Numbered from the stretch's first letter, positions 10,492 through 23,734 are shown. The stretch is DNA of 64,000 nt from an archaeon (GCA_020057295.1 JAGVGF010000002.1:190276-254275); one strand, 5' to 3'. Notes: generated by a model not told the origin, from the letters alone. A program made the numbers and translations.

Positions 10492-11571
10492 TTATACAAA
10501 TCTTTCCTTAAAAGTTTCAAAATATGTTATCATCAAGGGTAACAATATTGGACCGATAAATATTCCAACAATTCCAAACATAGCAGCTCCACATATTACT
10601 CCTATAATTACGCTTACTTGACTTACTTTTGCTCTTGCATGCACGATTTTAGCGAGTAAGAAATTATCAATTAAATTAATTATGAAAAAGCTGTATATTA
10701 ATAATCCTATTCCCCTATATAACATCCATTGATCATTAGTCAAATATCCTCCCACAATCAAAAAAAGCGAAGCAGGAAGCCATATAAGCGCTGTACCGGC
10801 TGTCGGGATTAATGTGCAGAAAGCAGTAAGAATTCCTAGAATTACTGGAAAAGGAACACCAAATGCATAATATCCTAAAGTTCCAACTAATCCTTGAATA
10901 AATGCAACAAACAATTGTGCATAAACAACAGTATACGTTATGTCGCCAAATTCTATAATCAATCTTTTTATTGACTTTTGTTTCATCGGGAGCAAATTAA
11001 GAGTTTTTTTAAGTAAATTCTCCCAATCTTTTAGTATAAAATAAGATATTGTCAATATAAGAATTATTTCCGCAATTATAATTGGTATAGTTAGAATAAA
11101 TATAGTTATTTTTTCCTCTATAATTGGTAATAGTTTCGGTAATTGTTTATTAAAACCAAAGGTTGTCAATCTCTCTGCACTAAATGCTTCTGCCTGATTA
11201 AGTAATGCGCATACTTTGGAATCTGCACTATTACATCCAAAACCAAATACAGCTCCTTTCTCAATTTTATCTGATAATGAATGATAGAAAATATATCCTT
11301 GTTGTGTAACTTCGAATGCCAAAAAAGCGAACGGAATTAATATTATAATCATAACGATGAGAAGAGAAAGAATGATTGAAGTAAATTTATTTGATATTTT
11401 TTTGCTTATCCTTTTATAAACAGGAAAAGATACATATGCAAGGAGAATACTGCTTAGTATAATGACTATCATAGGTCTAAGAAAAATAAAAAATAAAACT
11501 AATACAGATATAAATAAAATAAAAGGAACTATTCTTTTGTATTGATGCGCGTGATTATCGAGGAGTTTCAT
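10492..11571 (-). CDS. AI-2E family transporter (UPF0118/PerM-like)
   Basis: ~360-aa, 8-TM protein with an architecture typical of the family; sequence-pattern recollection only. Confidence 0.45.
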   Translation of the reverse strand: MKLLDNHAHQYKRIVPFILFISVLVLFFIFLRPMIVIILSSILLAYVSFPVYKRISKKISNKFTSIILSLLIVMIIILIPFAFLAFEVTQQGYIFYHSLSDKIEKGAVFGFGCNSADSKVCALLNQAEAFSAERLTTFGFNKQLPKLLPIIEEKITIFILTIPIIIAEIILILTISYFILKDWENLLKKTLNLLPMKQKSIKRLIIEFGDITYTVVYAQLFVAFIQGLVGTLGYYAFGVPFPVILGILTAFCTLIPTAGTALIWLPASLFLIVGGYLTNDQWMLYRGIGLLIYSFFIINLIDNFLLAKIVHARAKVSQVSVIIGVICGAAMFGIVGIFIGPILLPLMITYFETFKERFV

Positions 11572-11592
11572 TGTATGAAGATATTTTTATGA

Positions 11593-11862
11593 TTATGTTT
11601 TACCCCAAAATTTTGCTTCTTTTTCCATTTTTGCTAGTCGGGTGTAGTAATCCGGAAATTCTGTTAAATGTGCTAAAGCAATTTTTCCAGTCATCACAGA
11701 ATTATCGTTAGAAACATTAGTGTATAGATTTATTCTTCCATGTTCTAATTCAACATTCATTCCTTTTCTAAATTGTCCAACATCAAACTTTTCCCATGTT
11801 ATTCCTAATTTAACACCTACTATTTCTGCTTCTTTTTTTGTAAATTTATTTTTTGATTTCAT
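11593..11862 (-). CDS. hypothetical protein (small conserved domain, 'GMNVELEHG' motif)
   Basis: 89-aa ORF; reminiscent of a DUF5661-type family, unverified. Confidence 0.35.
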   Translation of the reverse strand: MKSKNKFTKKEAEIVGVKLGITWEKFDVGQFRKGMNVELEHGRINLYTNVSNDNSVMTGKIALAHLTEFPDYYTRLAKMEKEAKFWGKT

Positions 11863-11973
11863 GTAGCATCACATTTTTTATTACTATTATTTAATAAGTC
11901 ACTTTCTCTGTATTGAATGAAAATAATTATATATGCACATCAATAAGCGATGTACATATATTTTTCTTTCAAT

Positions 11974-12228
11974 CTAATTATGCTTTTTCTTCAGTACAGC
12001 CGTAACTGCTGCACCAACAACTGCTCCTGTTGCAGCAGCGATTAATACTGCCTTTTCAGGGTTTTCTTTGATGTAGCCATCGACTTTTTTCTTTACTTCT
12101 ACAGCTTTTTCTTTTAAGTGCGCTATCTCTTTCTCGCCGCTTTTTTTGATGCTTTCAGCTTTATCCATTACTTTATCGACGCCATCATGCGTTTTTTGTC
12201 TTATATCAGATATTTCTTCATGCTTCAT
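11974..12228 (-). CDS. DUF883/ElaB-YqjD-like C-tail-anchored membrane protein
   Basis: C-terminus 'ENPEKAVLIAAATGAVVGAAV' matches the ElaB/YqjD 'ENPWKAVGIAAGVG' anchor; charged helical N-terminus. Confidence 0.5.
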   Translation of the reverse strand: MKHEEISDIRQKTHDGVDKVMDKAESIKKSGEKEIAHLKEKAVEVKKKVDGYIKENPEKAVLIAAATGAVVGAAVTAVLKKKHN

Positions 12229-12257
12229 TTTTTCACCTTGTTTACTTTACAATTTTT

Positions 12258-12599
12258 TTATTTATCAGATTCTGATAATTTTAATATTAACCCTACTACA
12301 AAAACAGTTATTCCTATAGAAAAGAATGCTGTAGAATTGTTCCACATTAGATACTCTACTAAAAAAAAGAATAACGCAAAGATTAATAATAATCCTCCAA
12401 ATCCTATTATTGCAAAGGATAATATTTTTCTTAATATTCTTTTTTCTATTTGTTTTATTCTATCATCAACATTTTTCATAACTATTTCGGCTCCTTCCAC
12501 TATTGGAGGAAGTATAGTTGCTGATATTATTTGAGGAATAAAACTTAACACATCTTTTATAGTGTCCATGAATCCGTGTTTTTTTTCTTGTTCAGTCAT
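12258..12599 (-). CDS. hypothetical membrane protein
   Basis: 113 aa with two predicted TM helices. Confidence 0.35.
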   Translation of the reverse strand: MTEQEKKHGFMDTIKDVLSFIPQIISATILPPIVEGAEIVMKNVDDRIKQIEKRILRKILSFAIIGFGGLLLIFALFFFLVEYLMWNNSTAFFSIGITVFVVGLILKLSESDK

Positions 12600-12647: not shown

Positions 12648-13286
12648 CTACCACATTTTTGTTTGAATTCTATTAAACAATTTTCTAAACCATATTTGTA
12701 TTCTGTCATCTGGTTCTACGTCTACTTTCATAAATAATGTTGCATTATTATCTTTTGTATCTGTGAATGTTATAGATAAATCTGATTTACCAACAGGAGT
12801 TACAAGACCAGGATAAGGATATAAAAAATCATACTGACGTTCTATAGTATCATAACATCCTCCTATTTTGTCCTTTGTGTGTGAGGAATCACAAATTACA
12901 GGATTCCATCCATGATATTTATTCATAGGACTTACTTTAGGTATAGCAACATCTCTAAATTGAAAAATACAAGAGCTATGTGTCATTTCACAATGTGATA
13001 TTATATTATACCATGTTGTAGGATTGTAATCATTATCGCTGTCAGTAATAGATATAATTAATCGAACTGGTTTTTGTTCATTTTTTATTGTTCCTAAATC
13101 ATATACATAAACTCCGTTAACATCTATTGTTGGACTAACTGTATCAACATATTTTGTTGCATGATTATTATTAGGATCAATGGAATAATAACTTAATTTT
13201 CCAAGAATTGGTGCAGCAGCATTAACACTTATAGTTGCCAAACTTATAGCAATACACAATATAATTATACTTGTTAATTTATTCAT
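12648..13286 (-). CDS. secreted hypothetical protein
   Basis: Signal peptide 'IILCIAISLATISVNA'; Cys-containing 212-aa protein. Confidence 0.45.
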   Translation of the reverse strand: MNKLTSIIILCIAISLATISVNAAAPILGKLSYYSIDPNNNHATKYVDTVSPTIDVNGVYVYDLGTIKNEQKPVRLIISITDSDNDYNPTTWYNIISHCEMTHSSCIFQFRDVAIPKVSPMNKYHGWNPVICDSSHTKDKIGGCYDTIERQYDFLYPYPGLVTPVGKSDLSITFTDTKDNNATLFMKVDVEPDDRIQIWFRKLFNRIQTKMW

Positions 13287-13635
13287 TTTTTTACTCCTTT
13301 AGTTATTTGTCTTTTCATTTCTATAATTTTATTTTTCTAATGTGCTATTATAATTCCAATCAAATTGCTCCTAGTCCAAATGCCAAGATAAATTCAATCT
13401 GATCTTCTCTTAATTTTTGTTCTTTTTCAACCATTGTATAGTTTATATTGTACTTTGTTATCTATATTTCGTTGATGTTTCTGCTGTCCCAAAGATCTAT
13501 TGTTTCTTCAGGTATATCATTGGATTCATATAATTCATCCGTTATTTTTAATGCTCCAAATTTATTTACGTACATCATTTGTTCACCCCTACATTTATGT
13601 ATAATTTAAGTATTATTTATCATTTAAAGTCAAAT

Positions 13636-14000
13636 CTAACCGAATATGTGTGTGATCCAGTAAGCGAATTGATTCCACCAATTACCTATAGTTGACCATA
13701 TACCTGTAGGTGAAGATTCCAATGCAACATTACCTGTAATTAGGTTTCCACTATTACTTGTATTTCCATTATTATTTTGATTTGTTGCTACAGTATTTTG
13801 TTCATTATTATTTTGATTTGTTGTTGGTACTATTGGTGTGGTCGTATTTTGTTTTGGAACTGTTGCTTGTCCTGGTGTACATGATTTTGTTCTTGTCAAT
13901 GTTGTATTGCTATTGTCTGTGTAACATATTTGTGAACTTACGCCTTCTGAATTACATGTTGACCATGTTTCACATTGCAATGGTATTCCTCCTGATGAGC
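13636..14000 (-). repeat. C-terminal module coding repeat, copy 1 (near-identical to 19110..19500)
   Basis: Long identical runs shared with copy 2 (e.g. TGTCCTGGTGTACATGATTTTGTTCTTGTCAATGTTGT...TTACGCCTTCTGAATTACATGTTGACCATGTTTCACATTG); antisense ORFs 13758..14033 and 19337..19540 give near-identical peptides. Confidence 0.7.
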
Positions 14001-17000
14001 CTCCACTACTACCTCCTCCACTCGAAGATGTGACAACTGGTGCAGCAGCTTCTGAATATGTTACAAATTGTGTAAAATGTTTTGTCCAAATAATTAAATC
14101 GTTTCCAACATCTATTTTACAATCGCTTTCAATAGGCAGTAAGTCATTAGCAACTTGAGTATCATTCAAACAAACATTAAGTATTTTTGTAAATACTCCT
14201 GCTCTCGAATAACCCGTAAGTTTTCCTGCCTGACCAGATATTACAAGTCGAGCTGCATTATCAAATGTCAATTTAGTATCACCATAGCCCACTTCAACAA
14301 CTGATAAAACAGTGTTAGTCATTCCATTATTTACTGTTGGCGTTACGCTTGTTAGAACATTAACTGTTGGAACATTCATTATGCCATTCCAATCCTCAGG
14401 ACCAGAAATGGTTGTTCCTGAAGGCAATGTTACACTATAATCAGTTCCTAATGTATCTCTTGAAAGTGTTAAATCATTTGATAAATTAACAGATGTAAAA
14501 TTTGTTGTTACATTTGTTATATTATTAGTTACTGAATTAGTCGTTGTTAAAAGAGACAAATCTAATGTTACTTGTTTTGTATCTTCTATGGTGTTTGGTA
14601 CATTAATATTCGTTAAAGGCGAACCAACCGGAACAAGTATATCTGTTGAATTTTCAGTTACGTTCATAACTTCAGAATCTGCTAATGTTTGATTTTCTGT
14701 TGGAATGTCTGTCATGTTAGTTGTCAATGCAGAGGTAGTATACCATGGTGCATAACTTACATTGCCAGAAATAACGGCTGTAAAATTAGGATTAGCACTG
14801 CCCCAATAATTATACGTTGCGTTAACAAATGGGTGAGTAGAACTTATACTAATATCATTATTAACAAATCTATTTTCGTGTGCAACTACAACAGTGTTAT
14901 CTATATCTGAATATCCAACTGCTATAGCTTCAGTACAGTTTGAAATCGTATTACCTGTTATAGTAGCACGAGTTCCTGTTCCGTAATAGTCCGTTACTAA
15001 AATTCCTGCCGATGTCGAACCGTCATTTGTTGTAACGCCCTTGCAATTTGATATAGCATTGTTAGATATTATTGCTGATGCTCCCGCACCTACTTCTATT
15101 CCATAATCTAAAAAATCACCTGATCCTTTTCCGACATAAGTATTGCCAGTAATCAAAGCGTTACCAATCGCTGGTCCACTATACGCTCCACGAACATGAA
15201 CTCCTATACGTTCAATGTTGCTGAATGTGTTGTTGCTGACTGTTATATTGCCAAACACTACGATTCCGCGGCCAGAGTACGTGCCTGCTTTAATGTTCTT
15301 TATAATATTATTGTTAATCGTTCCATCACCATAAGATGCTATTGCCCAATTAATTAATCGTGTTGGTGCATCACCATCTAGTGTTACATTACTTAAATTG
15401 AAATTCACACCGGTGTTAATCAGGAACCATGCTGCGCTATCAGCATTGTTGCCTGCAGTATCGGTTGATGGCTTTATGATTGTCGTTAGTTTATTAACTC
15501 CGACGATAGATACATTTTTGCTAATGACTATTTGTCCAGTTTCAGTATACGTTCCTGGTCCTACTTTAATCGTGTCGCCGCTCTGAGCAACTCTATCAAT
15601 CGGATATCGTTTTATTGCAGTGTAAATACCAGCAATATTAACAATATCTCCTGTTGAACCACAGCCGATGCAATCCCATGTACGCATTTCATTTGCTGGA
15701 GTCCAAACAGTTACAGATTTATCGAATGTGTTTGCAGTAAGAATAGCGTTCCAATCCAATGAACTATAACCTACATTTCCTTTGTAATTTCCCCAAGCAA
15801 TAACATGTCTACGATCTGCTGTTGTAAATTCATTATTAGTAATTGTTGCTGCTCCAACAGGATACACATCCCATAGATCTGCTTGTGGACCAACAAATTC
15901 AATTCCATCCATAACGTTCTCAAACTTATTACCTATAATTACACGATTAGCAACATCTCCACTCCAACCTGCACCGCTGCTAAAACGGATGCCAGAACCA
16001 TATAAGCCTGCTCCGCCACCATCTAGTAAGTTTCCTTCAATTCTATAAGATTGTAAATGAGAACTGTCTGTTCCCGAATCATACTTTGGATCGTACATAT
16101 AGATTGAAGAAACTCCATCCATTGCATTTATTACAGAATTTTTTATTACAACATTGTTCCCAATCACTTCAACTGTTTTAGTGTTCTCTCCACCGTTCCA
16201 TCCCAAAATTGTGAAACCAGAAATTACTACATTATCAGCTTGAACAAATATTGTGTCCTCATGCCCAGAGTTTAACAATTGTCTTTTTGGACTGATTGTT
16301 GCAAGGACATTATCATAATTTGTTATTACATTTCCATTATTATCAACACCTTGTATAGTGACTGATTTATCTACAAAGATATTGAAATCACTAGAACCTG
16401 CTCCGCCATCAACTTGATTACGGGAATTCGCTTCATCCTGGTTATATGTTCCAGGTGTGACATCAATTATATCGCCACTAGTGGCTGCATCAATCGCAGC
16501 CTGAATAGTATAAAAAGATTGCTCTCCTGAATCAAGAATGTTATTTACATTCGTATCAATGAAAACTGGACCTGAAAAATTCGTAGCGTTAGAAGTATAA
16601 ATAGATATGTTGTTAGAATCTAATGTTACTGCTGTTTGTGCTAATGCTCTTCCGTTTAATGTTGCTCCAGTTAGCATTGCAATATTTGTAGCATCTAAAA
16701 TATTTCCACTTAATACTGATGTTGTTCCAAGTGTTGTTGTGCTAGCGACTTGCCAGAAGATATTTTTTGACTGGCAACTTCCATTTAATATAACTTGCTT
16801 TGAAGAAGCAATATTTAGAGTATTTGCTATTTGAAATATAAACACACCATTCGAGTCTCCTTGACAATCAAGAACAACATTGTTATTTATCAATACCGAA
16901 GTACTTGGACCCCATTTGTAAATTCCTGGTGTTAAAGTCATTCCGCTAATGTCTCCTGCTCCAAGTTCGATATAATCTGCGGATCCTGTGCCATTAACTC

Positions 17001-17388
17001 TTCCAGCTGCATCATTGTAAGCAGTTGTCATATCATTTGTTGCAGTATTAATTTTAGCTGGGGTTGGAACAGCATAGTTATATGCATATATTTTTCCATT
17101 CACTAAAGTTGATGTAGAAAATTGATTAGAACTATCTAGAGTTAACGCGAAATTTCCTGTTATTGCTGTAGAAGTTACTGCAGGGCCGACACCAATATCT
17201 CCAACAATAGATGTTGTACCAGTAGAAGATATTCCGGAACCAGATAATATAACAAAGTCTGCAGTTGATCCGAGATTTACAATCGCGGGACTTGATGCAT
17301 TAACAAAGTATACCATAAATAAGAAAATTATGAGAATAAATACTATTGAATATACAACGATTTTTGATAATATCTTTTTCTGTTTCAT
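13636..17388 (-). CDS. giant secreted surface protein: DUF3494 (ice-binding-like) domain + right-handed beta-helix repeats + conserved Cys-rich C-terminal module
   Basis: Signal peptide; N-terminal domain 'VNLGSTADFVILSGSGISSTGTTSIVGDIGVGP...LTPGIYKWG...NIFWQV...LNGRALAQTAVTLD' is a classic DUF3494 pattern; central PbH1-type repeats ('GNTISNCTEAIAV...'); C-terminal GS linker, 'PLQCETWSTCNS...ICYT...TKSCTPGQ', N/T-rich stalk, 'WWNQFAYWITHIFG'. Confidence 0.8.
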   Translation of the reverse strand: MKQKKILSKIVVYSIVFILIIFLFMVYFVNASSPAIVNLGSTADFVILSGSGISSTGTTSIVGDIGVGPAVTSTAITGNFALTLDSSNQFSTSTLVNGKIYAYNYAVPTPAKINTATNDMTTAYNDAAGRVNGTGSADYIELGAGDISGMTLTPGIYKWGPSTSVLINNNVVLDCQGDSNGVFIFQIANTLNIASSKQVILNGSCQSKNIFWQVASTTTLGTTSVLSGNILDATNIAMLTGATLNGRALAQTAVTLDSNNISIYTSNATNFSGPVFIDTNVNNILDSGEQSFYTIQAAIDAATSGDIIDVTPGTYNQDEANSRNQVDGGAGSSDFNIFVDKSVTIQGVDNNGNVITNYDNVLATISPKRQLLNSGHEDTIFVQADNVVISGFTILGWNGGENTKTVEVIGNNVVIKNSVINAMDGVSSIYMYDPKYDSGTDSSHLQSYRIEGNLLDGGGAGLYGSGIRFSSGAGWSGDVANRVIIGNKFENVMDGIEFVGPQADLWDVYPVGAATITNNEFTTADRRHVIAWGNYKGNVGYSSLDWNAILTANTFDKSVTVWTPANEMRTWDCIGCGSTGDIVNIAGIYTAIKRYPIDRVAQSGDTIKVGPGTYTETGQIVISKNVSIVGVNKLTTIIKPSTDTAGNNADSAAWFLINTGVNFNLSNVTLDGDAPTRLINWAIASYGDGTINNNIIKNIKAGTYSGRGIVVFGNITVSNNTFSNIERIGVHVRGAYSGPAIGNALITGNTYVGKGSGDFLDYGIEVGAGASAIISNNAISNCKGVTTNDGSTSAGILVTDYYGTGTRATITGNTISNCTEAIAVGYSDIDNTVVVAHENRFVNNDISISSTHPFVNATYNYWGSANPNFTAVISGNVSYAPWYTTSALTTNMTDIPTENQTLADSEVMNVTENSTDILVPVGSPLTNINVPNTIEDTKQVTLDLSLLTTTNSVTNNITNVTTNFTSVNLSNDLTLSRDTLGTDYSVTLPSGTTISGPEDWNGIMNVPTVNVLTSVTPTVNNGMTNTVLSVVEVGYGDTKLTFDNAARLVISGQAGKLTGYSRAGVFTKILNVCLNDTQVANDLLPIESDCKIDVGNDLIIWTKHFTQFVTYSEAAAPVVTSSSGGGSSGGSSGGIPLQCETWSTCNSEGVSSQICYTDNSNTTLTRTKSCTPGQATVPKQNTTTPIVPTTNQNNNEQNTVATNQNNNGNTSNSGNLITGNVALESSPTGIWSTIGNWWNQFAYWITHIFG

Positions 17389-17467
17389 TTTTAATCCGCC
17401 TCTCCCCTTGTAAACATATTAAATAATATGTTCTTAAACAATATTTTTTTATTTTTTTATACAAAAT

Positions 17468-17953
17468 TTATCTAGCCTTGACTTCTCCTGGAGATGCTGA
17501 AATAGTATCTTCTGTATTCTCTACATCTCCTTCGGAAAATCTGTAGTGTCTTGTAATTTTAATTCTTGCAGTATCTTCGATCACATCTCCTGTTTTGTCA
17601 GGCAGTAATCGCATATTATGAATATCAATTCCTTGAATTTCTATCTCTACTTTTCTTATACTTGAATGGTTTGGTGTGAGTACAATGGTTTTGTGATCAG
17701 GTCCCCATTTTTTCTCGAATGTTCCAGATGTATAATTAAATTTAGATAAAGGAATATTTGGAAGGGTTAAGCAATTCGCTTTCAAAAAAACAATATACTC
17801 GCCATAAGTCATTATAGGAATTATGCCTTTGCCCTCTTTCTTGCTTTGATTTTCAAAACGTATAGTGTCTTTTCTTTGTATATAGTGCAAACTATTCTTT
17901 TGATTTATGTTACTTTTAATTTCGTCTAATTTATCTTCTTTTGATTTTTCCAT
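17468..17953 (-). CDS. hypothetical protein
   Basis: Start chosen at 'MEKSKEDK' to avoid overlap with the upstream membrane-protein gene; no motif recognised. Confidence 0.35.
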   Translation of the reverse strand: MEKSKEDKLDEIKSNINQKNSLHYIQRKDTIRFENQSKKEGKGIIPIMTYGEYIVFLKANCLTLPNIPLSKFNYTSGTFEKKWGPDHKTIVLTPNHSSIRKVEIEIQGIDIHNMRLLPDKTGDVIEDTARIKITRHYRFSEGDVENTEDTISASPGEVKAR

Positions 17954-17991
17954 TGTAATAATGCTCCATTTTTTAAAATGATATTTTTTTC

Positions 17992-18321
17992 TTAAAGTGG
18001 CCCAGCAATTGTTGGTAATATTAAACTGACAATAATTGCAAAAATCCATATAACTACAGCTATAACAAAAGATTTTATCCAACCAATCTTATATAAACTA
18101 CCTAGAGCGATAAGCCAAGCTATTCCACCAATTAATGCAGCAACCCAACCTATTCCTATAAAATAAGAAGTGAGTGAAAATATTATTGCACCGACAAGTG
18201 CAGTTAATATAGCTGTACCAAATCCTTCTTTTTCTCCAAATAATTTTGCAGCTATATAAATAATAATTGATGATATGATTAAACTTATCAAAAATCCTAT
18301 TAATGCTTCTAATACTATCAT
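17992..18321 (-). CDS. small integral membrane protein (4 TM)
   Basis: 109 aa, Gly/Ile-rich TM helices. Confidence 0.45.
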   Translation of the reverse strand: MIVLEALIGFLISLIISSIIIYIAAKLFGEKEGFGTAILTALVGAIIFSLTSYFIGIGWVAALIGGIAWLIALGSLYKIGWIKSFVIAVVIWIFAIIVSLILPTIAGPL

Positions 18322-18407
18322 AATAAACCTCTATTTCTTGACCGTGTCATTACACAATTTTGTGATAATGATTCCTAATATAGAACCTAAATATTTTTTG
18401 TTAACAT

Positions 18408-18527
18408 TTACGTTTTCATTATTTTTTTTCCTGCAGGTCTGTTTTTTACCATTCCTTTTCCACCTGCGCTCTTTGCAGCTCTTTTCTTTGCTGCTGTCAT
18501 TCTTCCGCCTCTGCTTGATTTTGCCAT
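18408..18527 (-). CDS. possible 39-aa Lys/Ala/Gly-rich basic peptide (not in track)
   Basis: MAKSSRGGRMTAAKKRAAKSAGGKGMVKNRPAGKKIMKT; GGAGG 8 nt upstream of its ATG. Confidence 0.25.
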   Translation of the reverse strand: MAKSSRGGRMTAAKKRAAKSAGGKGMVKNRPAGKKIMKT

Positions 18528-18528
18528 T

Positions 18529-18759
18529 TTATTTCCTCCGTTTGTTATAGTCTATGTTTTTAATTAGCCAATAAATTCCTACAATTATTAGAATAATTAC
18601 TAAGATGCTGAAAATCCAGCCGAGCGACATAAATCCATAACTATATCCGCTCATCATTCCATAACTTCTAAAACCGAATCCGAAAAATTCTAAGAGGATT
18701 AGAATTGCTATAACAACAACTATTCCTATAATAAAATTTTTATTATCTTTCTTTGTCAT
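18529..18759 (-). CDS. small membrane protein
   Basis: 76 aa, two TM helices, basic C-terminus. Confidence 0.4.
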   Translation of the reverse strand: MTKKDNKNFIIGIVVVIAILILLEFFGFGFRSYGMMSGYSYGFMSLGWIFSILVIILIIVGIYWLIKNIDYNKRRK

Positions 18760-18805
18760 TTTTATTTTCCCAAATTTAATTTACTAATATAAATCTGATA
18801 ATTAT

Positions 18806-18994
18806 TTAAGCTTGTTTGATCACGTGAGCTATTACTGAAATTGCAAATAATATTACAAAAATTATAGCTAACCATTTAGCGATTGTAAATGATGTTCCTG
18901 AGATGAATCCAAATCCTAATATTCCAGCAATTACTGCTACTACCAAAAATATTATCGCTAAAAACAACCAGCCTCCTAAACCTTTTTTATTCAT
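18806..18994 (-). CDS. DUF1328 (UPF0391) family small membrane protein
   Basis: 'GWLFLAIIFLVVAVIAGILGFGFISG' matches the DUF1328 pattern. Confidence 0.5.
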   Translation of the reverse strand: MNKKGLGGWLFLAIIFLVVAVIAGILGFGFISGTSFTIAKWLAIIFVILFAISVIAHVIKQA

Positions 18995-19109
18995 TTTTGT
19001 CTCCGTTATAATTATGTATTCTTCACAGTAAGTTTATATCACATTTGAATCAAATGTTCTAATTAAAAAAATAAAAAAATGTATTACGCAACTTTACGTT
19101 GATAAGCTT

Positions 19110-19500
19110 TTAACCAAATATGTGTGTGATCCAGTAGATGAACTGGCTCCACCATCGACCTATAGTTGACCATATTCCTGTAGGTGATGATTCTAATGCA
19201 ACGTTACCTGTAATTTGGTTTCCATCATTTGGTGTATTTCCATTATTATCTTGAACTACTGGTGTAGTCTGATTTACTGCCCAAGTGTTTTGTCCATTGT
19301 TACCTGTGTCTGTTACTGGTGTAGTTACGTTTTGTTTTGGAACTGTTGTTTGTCCTGGTGTACATGATTTTGTTCTTGTCAATGTTGTGTTGCTATTGTC
19401 CGTGTAACATATTTGTGAACTTACGCCTTCTGAATTACATGTTGACCATGTTTCACATTGTAATGGTGTTCCTCCTGATGAACCTCCACCGCCTCCTCCT
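19110..19500 (-). repeat. C-terminal module coding repeat, copy 2
   Basis: See 13636..14000. Confidence 0.7.
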
Positions 19501-21215
19501 GTGCTTGCTGGTGGTTGTACAACAGCAGCATCAGTTGTAAAGCTTGTAGTATTACTTACAGAATATCCTGCTTTATCATAACATGTAATATTTACTGTAT
19601 AAGCTGTACTAGAACTTAGACCGCTTAAACTAGCTGTGTATACTCCATTACTTAAAATTAAATTGCCGCTTCCCGCGCCTGTATAAGTACAATTATTTAT
19701 TCCAGAATACATATCACTAGCATTAATAGTAATGGTTGCACCACTACTAGTTACACTACCGCTGGATACACTGTTTGTTACTGGTGCAGTTTGATCTACA
19801 TAAACTGTAAACGAAGTCGTGTTTATGTTTGTAGCATTATCTCTTACAGTTAAGTTTACATAGTACGTACCATTTGTAGTAACAGTATATGTTTCTATTG
19901 CTGAAAGATTAATTGTGGTTGCTGTCCAATTCTGTAACAATCCTCCTGTAGAATTGTATACTGATAATGTCCAATTTATTAAGTTAGTATCATTAGCAGT
20001 AAAGTTAATACTTAATGTTGTGTCATTAGTACCGTAACCATTACTTACATTGTTGATACTATTAATTAATGATGTTGGCATAATTGTATCTATAAAAACC
20101 ATTCTATTACTAGAGTTAGTTACAACAGATCCGTCATCACAACTCATATACCAACTATTGTTACCTTCGCTTAATTGTGCATTAGCAGTAATAGCAGTAT
20201 TAGTATTATTAACAACTGAACTATTTGTTCCTACAGAAACATTGTTTGCATACAAAGTACAAGATGCTGTTGAAGCACCAACATACTTGAAAGTAAATGC
20301 TGGCATATTACTAGTATTCCATGTATTAGTTGTAGGATTTACTAAAGTTACTACTGGTGAACTTGTGCCAGTTGGCGATGTAACTATATTGGATTGCAAT
20401 GTAACTTGATCAGTTGATGCAAATAATTTACCAGTTATATTAGCACCAGTAAGTGCGTTTACTTCTGTCCATGCGAATACATTTCCATAAAAAACAGTGT
20501 TAGTTCCAATAACTGTTTTACCTGCTGTTCTCCAATAAACATTTTTTGCTTGTGCACCGTTTGCTAAAATTATATTACCTCCTGGGGCTCCAGTAATAAG
20601 AGTGCCTGTACCGACTATATTAAAAATCCACACGGAATTAGGATTACCTTCTGCATCTAGAGTTAAATTTCCTTGTTGTATTATTACATTGGAAGCAGTC
20701 TTATAGACTCCACGAGTAAGTGTTAAATTGCCTAATTCTGTTGGGCAAGATATTGTTGGTGCGTCAGGATTTGGGTCTGCAGCTAAATATGTGAATGCAA
20801 TTCCTAAATCAGTTTTTGCTTGAGTTATCATTGCACCGCTAGTTGTCCATGTTGCTCCAACAGGTAATGTTGAATAATGTAATGGATAAGGAAATGGTGC
20901 CGGATTAGAATCATCGGATGCGTATGATGTTCCGCCTGTAAGTTCAGTAAAATCTCCTGCAGGTCCAGTTGATGTGAATCCTGTAATGAACGTACGAGCT
21001 TGATCTTCTACACCAATATCTCCACCTGTAATATTACTGCCTACTGTTGTTGTGACTGTTTGACTAGCTAAAATTACGAATCTGCCTGCTTCTCCTAAAT
21101 CTGGAGCAGTTGGATTTTCTCCTACTGCATTAACGTTAATTGCACTAATTAATAATATAGTTGCAAAAATTGCAATATACATAAAGATGTTTGATGATGT
21201 GTTTTTTTGTTTCAT
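19110..21215 (-). CDS. secreted surface protein: DUF3494 (ice-binding-like) domain + Ig-like domains + conserved Cys-rich C-terminal module
   Basis: Signal peptide nearly identical to that of 21326..22546; DUF3494 motifs ('LGEAGRFVILASQTVTTT', 'LTRGVYKTASN', 'NVYWRTAG'); C-terminal ~120 aa ~90% identical to the C-terminus of 13636..17388. Confidence 0.8.
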   Translation of the reverse strand: MKQKNTSSNIFMYIAIFATILLISAINVNAVGENPTAPDLGEAGRFVILASQTVTTTVGSNITGGDIGVEDQARTFITGFTSTGPAGDFTELTGGTSYASDDSNPAPFPYPLHYSTLPVGATWTTSGAMITQAKTDLGIAFTYLAADPNPDAPTISCPTELGNLTLTRGVYKTASNVIIQQGNLTLDAEGNPNSVWIFNIVGTGTLITGAPGGNIILANGAQAKNVYWRTAGKTVIGTNTVFYGNVFAWTEVNALTGANITGKLFASTDQVTLQSNIVTSPTGTSSPVVTLVNPTTNTWNTSNMPAFTFKYVGASTASCTLYANNVSVGTNSSVVNNTNTAITANAQLSEGNNSWYMSCDDGSVVTNSSNRMVFIDTIMPTSLINSINNVSNGYGTNDTTLSINFTANDTNLINWTLSVYNSTGGLLQNWTATTINLSAIETYTVTTNGTYYVNLTVRDNATNINTTSFTVYVDQTAPVTNSVSSGSVTSSGATITINASDMYSGINNCTYTGAGSGNLILSNGVYTASLSGLSSSTAYTVNITCYDKAGYSVSNTTSFTTDAAVVQPPASTGGGGGGSSGGTPLQCETWSTCNSEGVSSQICYTDNSNTTLTRTKSCTPGQTTVPKQNVTTPVTDTGNNGQNTWAVNQTTPVVQDNNGNTPNDGNQITGNVALESSPTGIWSTIGRWWSQFIYWITHIFG

Positions 21216-21325
21216 TTTTGTTTCTCCCTTATCGTAAATTTTTTGTTTTTTTTTATTCTATAATTTTTTCAAATCTGATTTTGATTTTCTTTTATTTATT
21301 GTATATTCTTATCGTAAAATTTTTA

Positions 21326-22546
21326 TTACTTTCCTCCAAAGAGTCTTGAGACCCATGCAAGGAAATTTTCCCACCACGAATTTTTACTTCCACTTTGTGT
21401 TGTTCCGCCAGCTTGTGTATTTTCATTATTGTTTGTATTATTTTGACTTGCTGGTGTACTTTGATTTACAGTCCAAGTGTTTTGTCCATTATTACTCGTA
21501 TTTGTTACTGGTGTAGTTACGTTTTGTTTTGGAGCTGTTGTTTGATTTAATGTACATGCTTGTGTCTTTGTTAATACTGTATCTCCAGTAGTATACTTGC
21601 ATGTTCTTGTACTGATATTTTTTGAATTACATGCTGACCATTCTGTACATTCAAGAGTATTTGAGCTTCCGCTAGTACTTCCTCCTGAACTTGAACTTCC
21701 GCTTCCACTACTTGTTCCTCCTGAACTTCCACTGCCTGTTCCAGGAGTAGGAGTTGGTGTAGGTGTTGGATTTGGTGTTGATGATCCTGATGGTATTGTG
21801 ACAGCATTTGCATCTAATGTTACTGCTGTTTGTGCTAGTGCTCTTCCATTTAATGTTGCTCCGGTATTTAGTACGATTGCTGTTTGACCTAGAATATTTC
21901 CTTTAAAGTCTGATGTTGTTCCAAGTGTTGCTTGACCTGCGACTTGCCAGAATATGTTCTTTGCTTGTGCACCGCCACTTAGAATAACTTTTTTACCATT
22001 TGCTATATCAAGTGTTTGCGCTATTTGGAATATCCATACATCTGTTGAACTTCCTGATAATGTAACATCTGTTGGTATTGTAACTCCAGTTCCCCATTTG
22101 TAAAGTCCAGGTGTTAATGTCATTCCGCCTATATTTCCAGCGCCTAATTCAGTATAATCTGGTAATGTTCTTCCAGCTGCATCAGTGTATGCTATTTCCA
22201 TATCGCCTATAGCTACACCCATAGCAGTTGGTGTTGGTGGGGTATAATCTGCTGCATATATTTTTCCTGTTACTAAAGATGATGTTGCGAAAGTATTTGA
22301 TGCATCAGAAATTAATCCGAATCCTGTTATGAAAGTTGCAGCTGCTGGACTTAATCCAATATCCCCAACTATTGAAGTGGTTCCAGTAGTTGAAACCCCT
22401 GATTTTGATAGAATAACGAAATTGCCTGCTGTTCCAAGATTTACAGCTGATTGTGCTGCGTTGACATTAAATGCGCTCATTAATAATATAGTCGCAAAGA
22501 TTGCAATATACATGAAAATATTTGATGTTGTGTTTTTTTGTTTCAT
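21326..22546 (-). CDS. secreted DUF3494 (ice-binding-like) protein with PT/GS linker and related Cys-rich C-terminal module
   Basis: DUF3494 pattern 'VNLGTAGNFVILSKSGVSTTGTTSIVGDIGLSP...LTPGLYKWG...NIFWQVAG...LNGRALAQTAVTLD'; 'PNPTPTPTPTPGTGSGSSGG...' linker; 'LECTEWSACNS...CKYT...TQACT'; Trp-rich C-terminus. Confidence 0.8.
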   Translation of the reverse strand: MKQKNTTSNIFMYIAIFATILLMSAFNVNAAQSAVNLGTAGNFVILSKSGVSTTGTTSIVGDIGLSPAAATFITGFGLISDASNTFATSSLVTGKIYAADYTPPTPTAMGVAIGDMEIAYTDAAGRTLPDYTELGAGNIGGMTLTPGLYKWGTGVTIPTDVTLSGSSTDVWIFQIAQTLDIANGKKVILSGGAQAKNIFWQVAGQATLGTTSDFKGNILGQTAIVLNTGATLNGRALAQTAVTLDANAVTIPSGSSTPNPTPTPTPTPGTGSGSSGGTSSGSGSSSSGGSTSGSSNTLECTEWSACNSKNISTRTCKYTTGDTVLTKTQACTLNQTTAPKQNVTTPVTNTSNNGQNTWTVNQSTPASQNNTNNNENTQAGGTTQSGSKNSWWENFLAWVSRLFGGK

Positions 22547-23089: not shown

Positions 23090-23659
23090 TTACAATCGTT
23101 TTTTTGTATCTAGAGGGAATAATTCATATTCAGAAATATCTTTCTTATCAATGATTTCCATTAACAAACCAAGAGGACTTTGTGTGATAATTTTATCAAC
23201 TGAGAATGTGTAAACTTCTTTTATCTCAATATAATTTTGATATTTGGTTTGAATATTAGAGATATACTCCTCTTTTTGTGATGTGTCTCTAAATCCTATT
23301 AATAGAATATGAGATGCTTGTGCATCAGCTACTCTGTACGCTGCGATTACGTATGGTATTTTTGAGATACGCTCAGCAATTGAACTATCAGAATATTTAT
23401 CCCACACTGCAGGTTTTATGCGGATGACAAGTAATGCCATGGCGTGAATGCCTATTTTTTTAAAATCTATTATCGGCATATATCCTTCTATGATTCCTAA
23501 TTGTTCAAGTTTTTCTCTTATCTTAAAAACTGCCTGAGGAGAAATACCCATGTCTGTTGCTATTTTGCTGTCTAGAATTCTTGAATGTTCTATAATCTTA
23601 CGTAATACATCTTTATCATTCTCCGTTAACTTTGGAGAATTTGGATCTGCTTTAAGCAT
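23090..23659 (-). CDS. Lrp/AsnC-family transcriptional regulator (extended)
   Basis: N-terminal 'LDxxDxxVLRKIIEHSRILDSKIATDMGISPQAVFKIREKLEQLGIIEGY' fits the AsnC-type HTH; RAM-like C-terminal region; paralogous to 23735..24298. Confidence 0.55.
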   Translation of the reverse strand: MLKADPNSPKLTENDKDVLRKIIEHSRILDSKIATDMGISPQAVFKIREKLEQLGIIEGYMPIIDFKKIGIHAMALLVIRIKPAVWDKYSDSSIAERISKIPYVIAAYRVADAQASHILLIGFRDTSQKEEYISNIQTKYQNYIEIKEVYTFSVDKIITQSPLGLLMEIIDKKDISEYELFPLDTKKRL

Positions 23660-23734
23660 AAAGTTGAAAAGACTATCAAGATTATAAAGCTGCGTTAAAA
23701 ATCTCTCTAAGAAATTTTTTAACTTGAGTAATAT

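What the first reader, a model, noticed from the sequence alone, without database searches (positions are those of the whole stretch)
12648..22546. Array of three secreted DUF3494 (ice-binding-like) paralogs sharing a novel Cys-rich C-terminal module and Trp-rich tail, with a block of small membrane-protein genes between them
Three same-strand genes of 1250, 701 and 406 aa each start with a signal peptide and a DUF3494 beta-helix domain. Their middles differ: PbH1 right-handed beta-helix repeats in the first, Ig-like domains in the second, a PT/GS linker in the third. All three end in the same module: a Gly/Ser linker, a four-Cys motif (L-Q/E-C-x-x-W-S-x-C-N-S...C...T-K/Q-S/A-C-T), 'PKQN.TTP', an Asn/Thr-rich (sequon-dense) stalk, and a short aromatic tail 'WW.(N/Q)F.YWI.HIFG'. 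The tail is neither PGF-CTERM nor a typical TM anchor. Two C-terminal modules are ~90% identical at DNA level (13636-14000 versus 19110-19500), and two signal peptides are near-identical, which indicates recent duplication or gene conversion. A secreted 212-aa protein and five small membrane-protein genes (17468-18994, including a DUF1328 member) are embedded in the array. In a DPANN-like cell this looks like a variable surface-adhesin or attachment locus with an uncharacterised C-terminal anchoring or sorting signal.
Basis: partly seen in the sequence, partly recalled or inferred. Interest (0 to 1): 0.8.

Follow-up and report, generated by a model that had tools for sequence, protein, structure and literature searches.

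The report
Surface-tethered ice-binding-like protein gene array
A small archaeon carries three secreted ice-binding-type proteins that share one C-terminal cassette (a small disulfide domain, a floppy stalk and a tryptophan-rich helix), and that helix probably sticks them to the cell membrane without a normal anchor; it also occurs on proteases of ultra-small bacteria and on phage lysis enzymes.

Summary
Three minus-strand genes (1250, 701 and 406 aa) each have a signal peptide and a DUF3494/Ice_binding domain (Pfam E 1e-54 to 1e-79). All three end in the same cassette: a 4-Cys module, an N/T/Q-rich disordered stalk, and an aromatic tail WWxxFxxW...F.

The locus is not an artefact and is not genome-specific. 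The same array, with the same neighbouring small genes, is syntenic in related DPANN-like contigs.

- **Tail.** It is a 14-22 residue amphipathic alpha-helix with physical properties like the E. coli PBP5 membrane anchor. In sister proteins it occupies the slot taken by TM+basic anchors. It also ends Patescibacteria trypsin-like proteases and two phage lysis-cassette peptidases that lack signal peptides.
- **Most likely role.** I read it as an autonomous in-plane membrane anchor, not a sortase-type signal.
- **DUF3494 domains.** They are close to proven ice binders (B701 versus SfIBP_1, E 1e-90).

Corrections: only three of the five embedded small ORFs are membrane proteins, and sequon density follows from composition. 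This is a new variant of a known kind, of moderate interest.

The parts
21326..22546 (-). C406 gene: signal peptide, DUF3494, PT/GS linker, C-terminal cassette
   Evidence: ORF. PF11999 E 5.4e-79. About 78% identical to the solved DUF3494 structure 9LI0, and E 2e-84 to ice-binding protein 4NU3. AF2 model.
21797..22414 (-). C406 DUF3494 beta-solenoid domain (aa 45-250)
   Evidence: It is 70-81% identical to homologues named under many different bacterial and archaeal phyla.
21554..21649 (-). C406 4-Cys TSR-like module (aa 300-331)
21380..21553 (-). C406 N/T/Q-rich stalk (aa 332-389)
   Evidence: pLDDT below 50 for residues 335-388. Composition is N 22%, T 26%, Q 14%. Sequons are not enriched beyond composition.
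21329..21379 (-). C406 C-terminal aromatic amphipathic tail SWWENFLAWVSRLFGGK (aa 390-406)
   Evidence: Predicted helix 390-403. muH 0.55 versus 0.27 for shuffles, p 0.004; Wimley-White interfacial dG -5.2 kcal/mol. Motif is unique to the three genes in the window.
19110..21215 (-). B701 gene: signal peptide, SfIBP_1-type DUF3494, Ig-like middle, C-terminal cassette
   Evidence: The DUF3494 domain (nt 20379-21074) matches 6BG8 (Shewanella frigidimarina SfIBP_1 ice-binding domain) at E 1.1e-90 over 247 residues. Syntenic orthologues carry Big_2.
19362..19457 (-). B701 4-Cys module (aa 587-618)
   Evidence: The amino-acid sequence is identical to the A1250 module.
19113..19178 (-). B701 tail GIWSTIGRWWSQFIYWITHIFG (aa 680-701), preceded by an ITGNV motif
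   Evidence: muH 0.49, p<0.001, interfacial dG -10.0 kcal/mol.
13636..17388 (-). A1250 gene: signal peptide, DUF3494 (nt 16606-17250), right-handed beta-helix region (nt 14836-16527), unassigned region, C-terminal cassette
   Evidence: PF11999 E 5.7e-67, Beta_helix E 1.4e-8, DUF1565 E 3.8e-4. Relative to the syntenic loci this gene is an insertion.
13879..13974 (-). A1250 4-Cys module (aa 1139-1170)
13639..13704 (-). A1250 tail GIWSTIGNWWNQFAYWITHIFG (aa 1229-1250)
   Evidence: muH 0.42, p<=0.001, interfacial dG -9.6 kcal/mol.
12648..13286 (-). 212-aa secreted Cys-containing protein co-inserted with A1250; ends in the basic aromatic stretch IQIWFRKLFNRIQTKMW
   Evidence: ORF. No Pfam or NCBIfam hit. 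The only cluster relative is P0124. The amphipathicity of its end is not significant (p 0.19), so whether it belongs to the system is uncertain.
17468..18994 (-). Conserved neighbour block of five small genes: ~161-aa soluble protein (17468-17953), 109-aa membrane protein (17992-18321), 39-aa basic peptide (18408-18527), 76-aa membrane protein (18529-18759), 62-aa DUF1328 (18806-18994)
   Evidence: DUF1328, the 39-aa and the ~161-175-aa genes recur next to the DUF3494 arrays in L082, L083 and L084; L080 keeps the 39-aa and 109-aa genes.
23090..24298 (-). Two tandem HTH_24 winged-helix regulator paralogs upstream of the array, a conserved synteny partner
   Evidence: HTH_24 E 8.7e-5 and 7.8e-7. 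The same genes lie upstream of the arrays in L080, L082 and L083.
10492..12599 (-). Downstream end of the syntenic block: 113-aa membrane protein, 84-aa DUF883_C-like, 89-aa DUF5661, AI-2E family transporter
   Evidence: The AI-2E transporter and the 113-120-aa protein close the block in L082 and L084.

Best explanation
This is a lineage-conserved array of Sec-secreted, cell-surface-displayed DUF3494 (ice-binding-type beta-solenoid) proteins in a low-GC DPANN-like archaeon.

**Architecture.** Each protein has a variable 'business end': DUF3494 alone, DUF3494 plus Ig-like spacers, or DUF3494 plus a pectate-lyase-type beta-helix. Each ends in one shared tether cassette with three parts:
- a small disulfide-stabilised three-stranded module with a TSR-like fold;
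- a disordered N/T/Q-rich stalk of about 50-60 residues;
- a C-terminal Trp/Phe-rich amphipathic alpha-helix of 14-22 residues (S-W-W-x-x-F-x-x-W-phi-x-x-L-F, often followed by GGK).

**Proposed mechanism (inferred).** After Sec export and signal-peptide cleavage, the terminal helix partitions in-plane into the outer leaflet of the cytoplasmic membrane. It would act as a monotopic anchor, as in E. coli PBP5/6 or pestivirus Erns. The stalk would hold the beta-solenoid out at the cell surface, where it binds ice or another ordered solid surface. B701 has the architecture of the SfIBP_1 candidate ice adhesin.

**Evolution.** The paralogs exchange modules by recombination or gene conversion.

**Shown versus inferred.**
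- Shown: domain identities, cassette conservation, synteny, mosaicism, helix amphipathicity, and distribution across archaea, Patescibacteria and phages.
- Inferred: membrane insertion of the helix, surface display, and ice binding.
For: **DUF3494 identity**
- Pfam hits.
- PDB relatives: C406 versus 9LI0 and 4NU3; B701 versus SfIBP_1 6BG8, E 1e-90.

**Cassette conserved in homologues and syntenic loci**
- Every array member in L082 and L083/L084 ends in the tail.

**Positional equivalence with anchors**
- Of the 124 proteins examined end in the tail and 21 end in a TM helix; PGF/PEF-like endings can be seen among the latter.
- Several representative hits read 'ITGxAIG...PSWW' followed by a TM helix and a YFxFRK-type ending. 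In those proteins SWW marks the membrane interface.

**Helix physics**
- AF2 predicts a helix at residues 390-403.
- Over 94 tails the hydrophobic moment peaks at 100 degrees (0.56, versus 0.16-0.24 at non-helical angles).
- 76-92% of tails beat their own shuffles at p<0.05.
- Wimley-White interfacial dG is -5 to -10 kcal/mol.
- These values equal or exceed those of the verified PBP5 anchor FFGKIIDYIKLMFHHWFG.

**Modularity across families and domains of life**
- 62 of 107 Patescibacteria Trypsin_2 proteases carry the tail, and none has a C-terminal TM helix.
- phrog_16701 peptidases in two phage lysis cassettes carry it. They sit next to a holin-like ORF or an endolysin and have no signal peptide.

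**No curated sorting-signal model matches**.
Against: - No experiment supports any of this. Membrane binding, surface location and ice binding are all inferred.
- AF2 confidence for the tail helix is only about 62.
- The shorter tails (14 residues) have modest mean hydrophobicity.
- Only flanks of related genomes were available, not whole genomes, so co-occurrence with a processing enzyme could not be excluded.
- Related contigs come largely from groundwater, sediment and lake MAGs, to judge by record titles. That does not obviously imply freezing habitats, and the literature notes that DUF3494 proteins in non-freezing settings may bind other surfaces (PMC11645318).
- NCBIfam's ice-binding equivalog cut-off (400 bits) is not reached: 262, 186 and 82 bits.
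Confidence: 0.5

Rival explanations
1. The DUF3494 proteins are host-attachment adhesins of an episymbiotic DPANN cell. The solenoid and its variable spacers would bind a host envelope component, and paralog shuffling would diversify specificity. The aromatic tail might anchor in the symbiont's own membrane or insert into the host membrane.
For: - The architectures are modular, variable and recombining.
- Adhesin-type accessory domains are present: beta-helix, Ig-like, Big_2 and Big_5 in relatives.
- The same cassette occurs in Patescibacteria, the bacterial group best known for episymbionts.
- Related contigs are largely from groundwater, lake and sediment MAGs.
- Raymond notes that DUF3494 proteins in non-icy habitats may bind other surfaces (PMC11645318).
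Against: - The DUF3494 domains are 70-81% identical to copies in free-living bacteria named under many different phyla. That fits a generic physical ligand (ice or mineral) better than a specific host ligand.
- B701's domain is near-orthologous to an ice-active protein.
- The phage peptidases show that the tail's role is not tied to symbiosis.
Confidence: 0.2
2. The tail, possibly together with the upstream ITGx(A/V)(I/V) motif, is a sorting signal. An as yet unknown membrane enzyme (archaeosortase, rhombosortase or sortase-like) would recognise and cleave it, then attach the protein covalently to a lipid or to the S-layer.
For: - The position is strictly C-terminal and the motif is conserved.
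- A conserved ITG motif lies 10-15 residues upstream of the C-terminal TM+basic anchors in related proteins, which resembles a tripartite signal.
- The tail occupies the slot used by PGF/PEF-CTERM-like ends in methanogen homologues.
Against: - The tail itself has no TM segment or basic cluster.
- No NCBIfam CTERM model matches.
- The same tail occurs in archaea, in Patescibacteria, and on phage lysis peptidases without signal peptides, which could never meet an extracytoplasmic sorting enzyme in the usual way.
- No candidate enzyme gene lies in any of the syntenic loci.
Confidence: 0.12
3. The tail is an oligomerisation element, a short aromatic helix bundle. It would multimerise the stalks, or dock them onto another envelope protein such as the neighbouring small membrane proteins or the S-layer, rather than bind lipid directly.
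For: - The a/d-like spacing of aromatic residues (i, i+4, i+7, i+11) is also compatible with helix-helix packing.
- Conserved small membrane-protein genes lie next to the arrays.
Against: - Patescibacteria proteases and phage peptidases carry the tail. No conserved DUF1328/109-aa neighbour block was seen beside the two phage peptidases, and the protease loci were not examined.
- Replacement of the tail by TM anchors in sister proteins points to the membrane itself as the target.
- Trp enrichment is typical of interfacial lipid binding.
Confidence: 0.1
4. The repeated C-terminal blocks are an assembly artefact (collapse or chimera), or the similarity is due to chance or low complexity.
For: None found. 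No read data were available to test this directly.
Against: - The copies are 84.5% identical, not 100%. Both are in frame and differ by indels in the stalk.
- The third copy is 42-50% identical.
- Independent assemblies of related genomes show the same cassette on all array members.
- The motifs have chance expectations of 0.01-0.04 per window.
Confidence: 0.02

Closest known systems
SfIBP_1 of Shewanella frigidimarina (PDB 6BG8), the DUF3494 + tandem Ig-like 'potential ice adhesin' (Vance, Graham & Davies 2018, as cited in PMC10796529)
   Same: B701's DUF3494 domain aligns over 247 residues at E 1.1e-90. The overall logic is the same: a secreted ice-binding solenoid joined to Ig-like spacer domains and held on the cell. 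Orthologues of B701 carry Big_2 domains.
   Different: The host is an archaeon. The order is DUF3494 first, then spacers, then a TSR-like module, stalk and amphipathic tail. The anchoring device is different and uncharacterised. No activity data exist.
Canonical single-domain DUF3494 ice-binding proteins (FfIBP chimera 4NU3, TisAFP, LeIBP, ColAFP; solved DUF3494 structures 9LI0/9LHN)
   Same: C406 and A1250 have the canonical DUF3494 domain. C406 is about 78% identical to 9LI0 and scores E 2e-84 to 4NU3. The AF2 model shows a beta-solenoid with the flanking helix.
   Different: Those proteins are soluble and secreted. The proteins here carry a C-terminal tether cassette and sit in a multi-paralog array. 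They fall below the NCBIfam IBP equivalog cut-off.
C-terminal amphipathic-helix membrane anchors: E. coli PBP5/PBP6 (DacA/DacC) and pestivirus Erns (PMC3937272)
   Same: In both cases a helix at the extreme C-terminus, aromatic-rich and amphipathic, follows an exported ectodomain. muH, mean hydrophobicity and interfacial dG are comparable to or larger than those of the PBP5 tail. A1250 and B701 even end in ...THIFG, like PBP5's ...HHWFG.
   Different: There is no sequence homology. The tail here has its own conserved motif (SWWxxFxxWphixxLF), follows a long disordered stalk, and is found in archaea, Patescibacteria and phages. Membrane binding is untested.
Thrombospondin type-1 repeat (TSR/TSP1) fold
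   Different: - There is no significant Pfam, PDB-sequence or profile-profile match.
- The window copies have 4 Cys, and relatives have 6 in a different spacing.
- The WxxW/RxR ladder is reduced to one W and at most one R.
- Homology is unproven.
Archaeosortase/exosortase/rhombosortase C-terminal sorting signals (PGF-CTERM, PEF-CTERM, PEP-CTERM, GlyGly-CTERM)
   Same: Both are conserved elements at the extreme C-terminus of secreted surface proteins. Methanogen homologues of these DUF3494 proteins end in PGF/PEF-like signals in the same slot.
   Different: The tail has no TM helix and no basic cluster after a signature motif. No NCBIfam model hits it. It is present on phage proteins that lack signal peptides.

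Membership tests
DUF3494 / Ice_binding (PF11999) | Match to the Pfam HMM above the gathering score (28.7 bits) | tested here: met
   225.8, 184.7 and 265.1 bits for A1250, B701 and C406.
DUF3494 / Ice_binding (PF11999) | Right-handed triangular beta-solenoid with a long alpha-helix packed alongside | tested here: met
   The AF2 model of C406 has strands throughout residues 43-250 and a helix at 107-126, with pLDDT 82-95 for residues 141-240. It is about 78% identical to the solved structure 9LI0.
DUF3494 / Ice_binding (PF11999) | Ice-binding activity (thermal hysteresis, recrystallisation inhibition, ice affinity) | not testable with these tools
   Only similarity to ice-active proteins is available (4NU3, 6BG8).
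NCBIfam IBP_CFB (NF045625) ice-binding protein equivalog | Score at or above the curated cut-off of 400 bits | tested here: not met
   262.4, 186.1 and 81.7 bits. The proteins are related to, but not members of, that equivalog.
SfIBP_1-type ice adhesin | DUF3494 domain of the SfIBP_1 subtype | tested here: met
   B701 versus 6BG8: E 1.1e-90 over 247 residues. A1250 and C406 belong to a different subtype.
SfIBP_1-type ice adhesin | Tandem bacterial Ig-like domains acting as an extender | tested here: inconclusive
   B701's middle region gives only a sub-threshold DUF7743 hit (24.1 versus 27 bits). The syntenic orthologues P0126 and P0128 have Big_2. No structure prediction was run for this region.
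Thrombospondin type-1 repeat (TSP1/TSR) | Match to Pfam TSP_1 / TSP1_ADAMTS HMMs | tested here: not met
   The best result is E 0.17 for 2 of 20 modules.
Thrombospondin type-1 repeat (TSP1/TSR) | Three-stranded antiparallel fold resembling solved TSRs | tested here: inconclusive
Thrombospondin type-1 repeat (TSP1/TSR) | Profile-level homology and the six-Cys / WxxW / RxR layered core | tested here: not met
   hhalign of the 6-Cys family against verified TSP1/properdin TSRs gives probability 13.6%, and the 4-Cys family gives 1.2%. The window copies have 4 Cys and a single Trp.
Prokaryotic 6-Cys 'CxxxWxCxxWxxC..GxQxRxC..C..C' repeat family (unnamed; mostly Patescibacteria and DPANN) | Profile-profile match between the window-type 4-Cys module and the 6-Cys repeat | tested here: met
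   hhalign probability 98.6%, E 7e-16. A profile search gave 171 representative clusters at E<=1e-3, many with 2-9 tandem copies.
Sortase/archaeosortase/exosortase-type C-terminal sorting signal | Tripartite design: signature motif, hydrophobic TM helix, basic cluster | tested here: not met
   Mean Kyte-Doolittle hydropathy over 15-residue windows of the tail regions is at most 0.55, far below the 1.6 used here as a TM threshold. No TM segment is present. The ends are ...IFG or ...LFGGK.
Sortase/archaeosortase/exosortase-type C-terminal sorting signal | Match to a curated CTERM model (NCBIfam/TIGRFAM) | tested here: not met
   No hit for the whole proteins at E<=0.1, and none for isolated C-termini at E<=10.
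Sortase/archaeosortase/exosortase-type C-terminal sorting signal | Co-occurrence with the cognate processing enzyme in the genome | not testable with these tools
   Only a 64-kb window and flanks of up to 10 kb were available. No such gene lies in the syntenic loci.
In-plane amphipathic-helix membrane anchor (PBP5/6-like; functional class, not a homology family) | C-terminal segment with alpha-helical amphipathic periodicity and favourable interfacial partitioning | tested here: met
   The moment peaks at 100 degrees. 76-92% of 94 tails have p<0.05 against their own shuffles. Interfacial dG is -5 to -10 kcal/mol, comparable to the PBP5 tail.
In-plane amphipathic-helix membrane anchor (PBP5/6-like; functional class, not a homology family) | Demonstrated membrane association that depends on the helix | not testable with these tools
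   This needs liposome-binding or fractionation experiments.

The most novel reading that the evidence does not exclude
The S-W-W-x-x-F-x-x-W-phi-x-x-L-F tail may be a previously unrecognised, enzyme-independent, portable membrane-anchoring peptide. It would be shared across domains of life by ultra-small episymbiont lineages (DPANN archaea, Patescibacteria) and by phage lysis-cassette peptidases. On this reading it is a general 'sortase-free' way to display or park proteins on a lipid bilayer whatever the lipid chemistry. That would suit organisms that scavenge host lipids. The upstream ITGx(A/V)(I/V) motif plus TM plus basic tail seen in sister proteins may be a second, undescribed tripartite sorting signal.
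Probability: 0.3. Interest if true: 0.7.

Novelty: new variant of a known kind. Interest (0 to 1): 0.55.

Why it matters
- **Surface display in DPANN and Patescibacteria.** How these cells retain proteins on their surface is largely unknown. They mostly lack the classical sortase, archaeosortase and lipoprotein machineries, and many cannot make their own lipids. A short portable aromatic helix that binds any bilayer would be a simple answer. It is directly testable with peptides and liposomes.
- **A handle for proteome mining.** The tail, the ITG motif and the TSR-like repeat could be used to find surface proteins in these lineages.
- **Phage biology.** The tail links these surface proteins to phage lysis peptidases.
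- **Ice-binding proteins.** The locus adds archaeal, cell-tethered, multi-paralog DUF3494 arrays to the known range. One member has the architecture of the SfIBP_1 candidate ice adhesin. The locus also illustrates extreme cross-domain transfer of the domain.

Tried and rejected
- **Word-indexed search with the three-sequence cassette alignment** found nothing, not even the query proteins. This was probably a bias or E-value effect. A full-length search and the representative-library profile search replaced it.
- **Looking up the window's own contig** by exact protein failed.
The single-protein scan returned almost only DUF3494-domain matches, and the window's own genome was not among the GTDB representatives.
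- **Sequence searches of the Cys module** against Pfam and PDB found nothing significant. This covers both the 4-Cys and the 6-Cys profiles; the LDLR-A hit at E 0.34 was dismissed.
- **Foldseek against PDB** was uninformative for a 44-residue model. The afdb50 library was unavailable.
- **hhalign against verified TSRs** was weak, so TSR membership is not claimed.
- **NCBIfam on isolated C-termini** gave no CTERM model.
- **The sequon-dense stalk** was rejected as a composition effect.
- **A Patescibacteria-type tail DNA pattern** found nothing in viral contigs. The looser WWxxFxxW...LF pattern gave mostly out-of-context or short-ORF matches. Only L197, together with L090 from the metagenome scan, was accepted as genuine.
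- **Literature.** No paper combined DPANN with ice-binding. PDB-code searches for 9LI0 and related entries returned only unrelated materials papers. The one query combining Patescibacteria with amphipathic helix, C-terminal and surface protein returned nothing relevant to these tails.
- **The 212-aa protein's basic aromatic end** was considered as another tail, but its amphipathicity is not significant (p 0.19).

Full report
**1. What is in the sequence**

Three ORFs lie on the minus strand. A1250 is at 13636-17388, B701 at 19110-21215 and C406 at 21326-22546. Each follows an AT-rich intergenic region and an AAGGGAG Shine-Dalgarno-like element. Each starts with a typical Sec signal peptide ending in ...VNA.

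All three match Pfam PF11999 (Ice_binding/DUF3494), at E 5.7e-67, 2.2e-54 and 5.4e-79. A1250 also matches Beta_helix and DUF1565. B701 has only a sub-threshold DUF7743 hit in its middle region.

The last 111-119 residues of the three proteins align with 43 invariant columns. The layout, in order:
- a Gly/Ser (or PT/GS) linker;
- a 4-Cys module, C-x2-W-S-x-C-N-S-x7-C-x14-C;
- 'PKQN.TTP' and an N/T/Q-rich stretch;
- a terminal aromatic segment, WWxxFxxW...F.

DNA patterns for the Cys motif and for the tail motif each occur exactly three times in the 64-kb window, only in these genes. Chance expectation is 0.04 and 0.01.

**2. The paralogs are mosaics**

Each region has a different nearest paralog:

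| Region | Closest pair | Amino-acid identity | Other pairs |
|---|---|---|---|
| Signal peptide (plus some upstream DNA) | B-C | 90% | about 40% with A |
| DUF3494 domain | A-C | 63% | B is 37-42% to either |
| C-terminal cassette | A-B | 85% (84.5% nt; blocks of 85-91%) | C is 42-50% |

This points to recombination or gene conversion among array members rather than simple tandem duplication. The copies differ by substitutions and stalk indels, so assembly collapse is very unlikely. Read mapping could not be done.

**3.
- Between A1250 and B701 there are five small same-strand ORFs, but only three are membrane proteins: 109 aa, 76 aa, and the 62-aa DUF1328 (E 2.9e-11). The others are a soluble protein of about 161 aa and a 39-aa highly basic peptide.
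- The stalks are not sequon-enriched beyond their N/T-rich composition (p 0.29-0.93). Only B701 as a whole is enriched, mainly in its middle region.

**4. Organism and genomic context**

The window is archaeal. It encodes NreA, an archaeal-type CCA-adding enzyme, an ATP-dependent DNA ligase and an archaeal SecD. Its G+C content is 31%. The nearest DUF3494 relatives with names are Pacearchaeota, Nanoarchaeota, Woesearchaeota and Micrarchaeota MAGs. 'DPANN-like' is therefore reasonable. The genome itself is not among the GTDB representatives that were scanned.

Contigs encoding the closest full-length homologues show the same gene order:
- HTH_24 regulator(s);
- two or three DUF3494 genes;
- DUF1328, small membrane ORFs, a 39-aa basic ORF and a 161-175-aa soluble protein;
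- a 113-120-aa membrane protein;
- an AI-2E transporter.

The window has the same flanks. Relative to those loci, A1250 and the 212-aa secreted protein (12648-13286) are an insertion between the ~161-aa and the 113-aa genes. The small membrane-protein genes are thus a conserved neighbour block, not something placed inside the array. Every DUF3494 gene in the L082 and L083/L084 arrays ends in the same tail (for example ...SWWSNFTSWISKLFGGK and ...GLWWNNFMTWLSRLFGGK). The cassette is therefore a stable feature of the lineage.

**5. The DUF3494 domains**
- C406's domain is about 78% identical to the solved structure 9LI0. It scores E 2e-84 to ice-binding protein 4NU3, and it matches fungal and bacterial antifreeze proteins.
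- B701's domain belongs to another subtype. It aligns to 6BG8 at E 1.1e-90 over 247 residues. 6BG8 is the ice-binding domain of Shewanella frigidimarina SfIBP_1, the DUF3494-plus-tandem-Ig protein proposed as an ice adhesin (Vance et al. 2018, cited in PMC10796529).
- The C406-type domain is 70-81% identical to copies in MAGs labelled Proteobacteria, Chloroflexota, Spirochaetes, Geobacter, Polaromonas, Cryosericum, Methanoperedens, Bathyarchaeia, Paceibacteria and others. This is the known horizontal-transfer signature of this family (PMC7783341 and PMC6892780 abstracts).
- The proteins do not reach NCBIfam's ice-binding equivalog cut-off.
- The literature stresses that DUF3494 proteins in non-freezing habitats may bind other surfaces (PMC11645318). 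Ice binding is therefore plausible, not shown.

**6. The Cys module**

It has no Pfam, NCBIfam or PDB sequence match. A profile of the whole cassette found 171 representative clusters (E<=1e-3) among 1.84 billion proteins. Many of them carry 2-9 tandem copies of the module in very different architectures.

Most copies elsewhere have six Cys, with consensus C-T-x-D-x-W-x-C-x2-W-x2-C-S-x2-G-x-Q-T-R-x-C-x2-T-x-D-C-...-P-x-T-x-Q-S-C. A regular expression for that pattern matched 637 times in the proteins fetched. The window-type 4-Cys form is homologous to it (hhalign 98.6%, E 7e-16).

**7. The tail**

AF2 predicts a helix at residues 390-403 of C406, after a stalk with pLDDT below 50.

*Amphipathicity.* I collected 94 such tails from the proteins seen here.
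- The hydrophobic moment peaks sharply at 100 degrees per residue (0.56, versus 0.16-0.24 at non-helical angles).
- 76-92% of tails exceed their own shuffles at p<0.05.
- Wimley-White interfacial free energies are -5 to -6.4 kcal/mol for the 14-residue core, and about -10 kcal/mol for the 22-residue tails of A1250 and B701.
- These values equal or exceed those of the C-terminal anchor of E. coli PBP5, FFGKIIDYIKLMFHHWFG. I verified that sequence against PDB 6NTZ.

*Consensus.* In the DPANN proteins it is S-W-W-x-(N/S)-F-x-x-W-phi-S-x-(L/I)-F, followed by 0-3 mostly basic residues.

*Evidence that it is an anchor rather than a sorting signal.*
- (a) Slot equivalence. Of the 124 DUF3494-group proteins examined, 15 end in the tail and 21 end in a C-terminal TM helix. 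PGF/PEF-like endings and a separate ~150-aa domain occupy the same slot in others. Several representative hits read 'ITGxAIG...PSWW' followed by a TM helix and a YFxFRK-type ending. In those proteins SWW sits at the membrane interface.
- (b) Portability. The tail also ends Patescibacteria trypsin-like proteases that carry tandem 6-Cys repeats. 62 of 107 have it, and none has a C-terminal TM helix. Source names include Gribaldobacteria, Parcubacteria and Paceibacterota.
- (c) Phages. A metagenome scan for the DNA pattern of WWxxFxxW-phi-xxLFGGK gave five loci. Four are the same archaeal DUF3494 proteins. The fifth, L090, is a tailed-virus contig with terminase, portal and tail genes. Its peptidase (phrog_16701, with no signal peptide) ends in TWWQRFVMWILNLFGGK and sits beside a holin-like ORF. 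A neighbouring PKD-domain ORF ends in SLWERFIIWLKKLFRR.
- A second, unrelated high-GC viral contig, L197, has a phrog_16701 peptidase ending in a PT linker plus SWWTKFLRWLSSLFR. It is immediately followed by an endolysin and a membrane protein.

*Reading.* A peptide that works on Sec-exported archaeal and bacterial proteins and also on cytoplasmically made phage lysis enzymes is best explained as a self-sufficient bilayer-binding (or envelope-binding) helix. No NCBIfam CTERM model matches it.

**8. Proposed mechanism**

This is inferred. The proteins are exported by Sec and the signal peptide is removed. The terminal helix lies in the outer leaflet of the membrane. The stalk and the disulfide module act as spacer. 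The DUF3494 solenoid, alone or extended by Ig-like or beta-helix regions, is presented at the surface. There it binds ice or another ordered surface.

B701 has the architecture of the SfIBP_1-type ice adhesin. The array diversifies by module exchange.

Rival readings are scored separately: host-attachment adhesin, cleaved sorting signal, oligomerisation or docking element, and artefact.

**9. Novelty and limits**

DUF3494 arrays and amphipathic-helix anchors are both known kinds. The new elements are:
- the specific conserved tail motif and its distribution across archaea, Patescibacteria and phages;
- its pairing with an uncurated TSR-like repeat;
- an archaeal, cell-tethered, multi-paralog DUF3494 locus.

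The few full-text searches I ran found no description of these elements. The library is incomplete, so prior description elsewhere cannot be excluded. All functional statements are inferences. The decisive tests are experiments and whole-genome co-occurrence analysis, which I could not run.

Noticed in passing
L090:490-2331 (Ga0315276_10004564) and L197:1311-3402 (IMG/VR contig): Two unrelated tailed-virus contigs (46% and 67% GC) carry a phrog_16701 peptidase without a signal peptide. Each ends in the same aromatic tail (TWWQRFVMWILNLFGGK; SWWTKFLRWLSSLFR) and sits in a lysis-type cassette, next to a holin-like ORF in L090 and next to an endolysin plus a membrane ORF in L197. In L090 a PKD-domain ORF also ends in SLWERFIIWLKKLFRR.
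   Followed up: partly
Proteins P0134, P0145, P0170, P0173, P0202, P0221, P0222, P0236, P0237, P0272; window 13705-13740 and 19179-19214 (ITGNVALESSPT of A1250 and B701): A conserved (I/L/V)-T-G-x-(A/V)-(I/V) motif lies 10-15 residues upstream of C-terminal TM helix + basic tails in many proteins that carry the Cys module. This looks like an undescribed tripartite sorting signal. A1250 and B701 keep the ITG motif but have the aromatic helix instead of a TM segment. No NCBIfam model matches.
   Followed up: partly
Proteins P0032, P0057, P0069, P0072, P0084, P0105 and others (18 of the 120 hits); L012:9974-11557: Sister DUF3494 proteins replace the stalk and tail with a conserved domain of about 150 aa that has no Pfam hit on record (GIGQELN...IKIMPD...CS.DNNCTIQLK...). 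This domain itself ends in HKPWWAF.A.EPAE, another WW-F C-terminal motif.
   Followed up: no
window 21797-22414; loci L001-L079: The C406-type DUF3494 domain is 70-81% identical to copies in MAGs named under many different bacterial and archaeal phyla (Pacearchaeota, Proteobacteria, Chloroflexota, Spirochaetes, Methanoperedens, Cryosericum, Polaromonas and others). This is an extreme case of cross-domain horizontal transfer. The window's own genome is absent from the GTDB representative set.
   Followed up: partly
window 18408-18527 (-): A 39-aa extremely basic ORF (MAKSSRGGRMTAAKKRAAKSAGGKGMVKNRPAGKKIMKT). A 39-aa ORF occupies the matching position in syntenic loci L080, L083 and L084. It has no family hit.
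   Followed up: no
window 11593-11862 (-) and L090:8515-11235: A stand-alone 89-aa DUF5661 protein (E 5e-23) lies at the edge of the syntenic block. The same domain is fused to the C-terminal part of the portal protein of the virus contig L090.
   Followed up: no
window 12648-13286 (-): A 212-aa secreted protein with about 6 Cys was co-inserted with A1250. It has no family assignment and only one near-identical relative in 15 billion proteins (P0124, from a 4.6-kb contig). It ends in a basic aromatic stretch, IQIWFRKLFNRIQTKMW.
   Followed up: partly
window 23090-24298 (-) and 22688-22861 (-): Two tandem paralogous HTH_24 winged-helix regulators (187 and 189 aa) and a 57-aa zinc-ribbon-like ORF lie directly upstream of the array. 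The regulator paralogs hold the same position in L080, L082 and L083, so they are candidates for regulators of the array.
   Followed up: no
window 11974-12599 and 18806-18994 (-): The block around the array is rich in small proteins of bacterial general-stress type: DUF1328, a DUF883_C-like glycine-zipper tail-anchored protein, and a weak holin-X-like membrane protein. This hints that the region may be a stress (possibly cold or desiccation) island.
   Followed up: no
L025:2813-3982: A MAG labelled Methanosarcinales encodes a DUF3494 protein with one Cys module and a tail variant, ...TIWTRISTWFKGLFS. If the binning is correct, the cassette extends outside DPANN.
   Followed up: no
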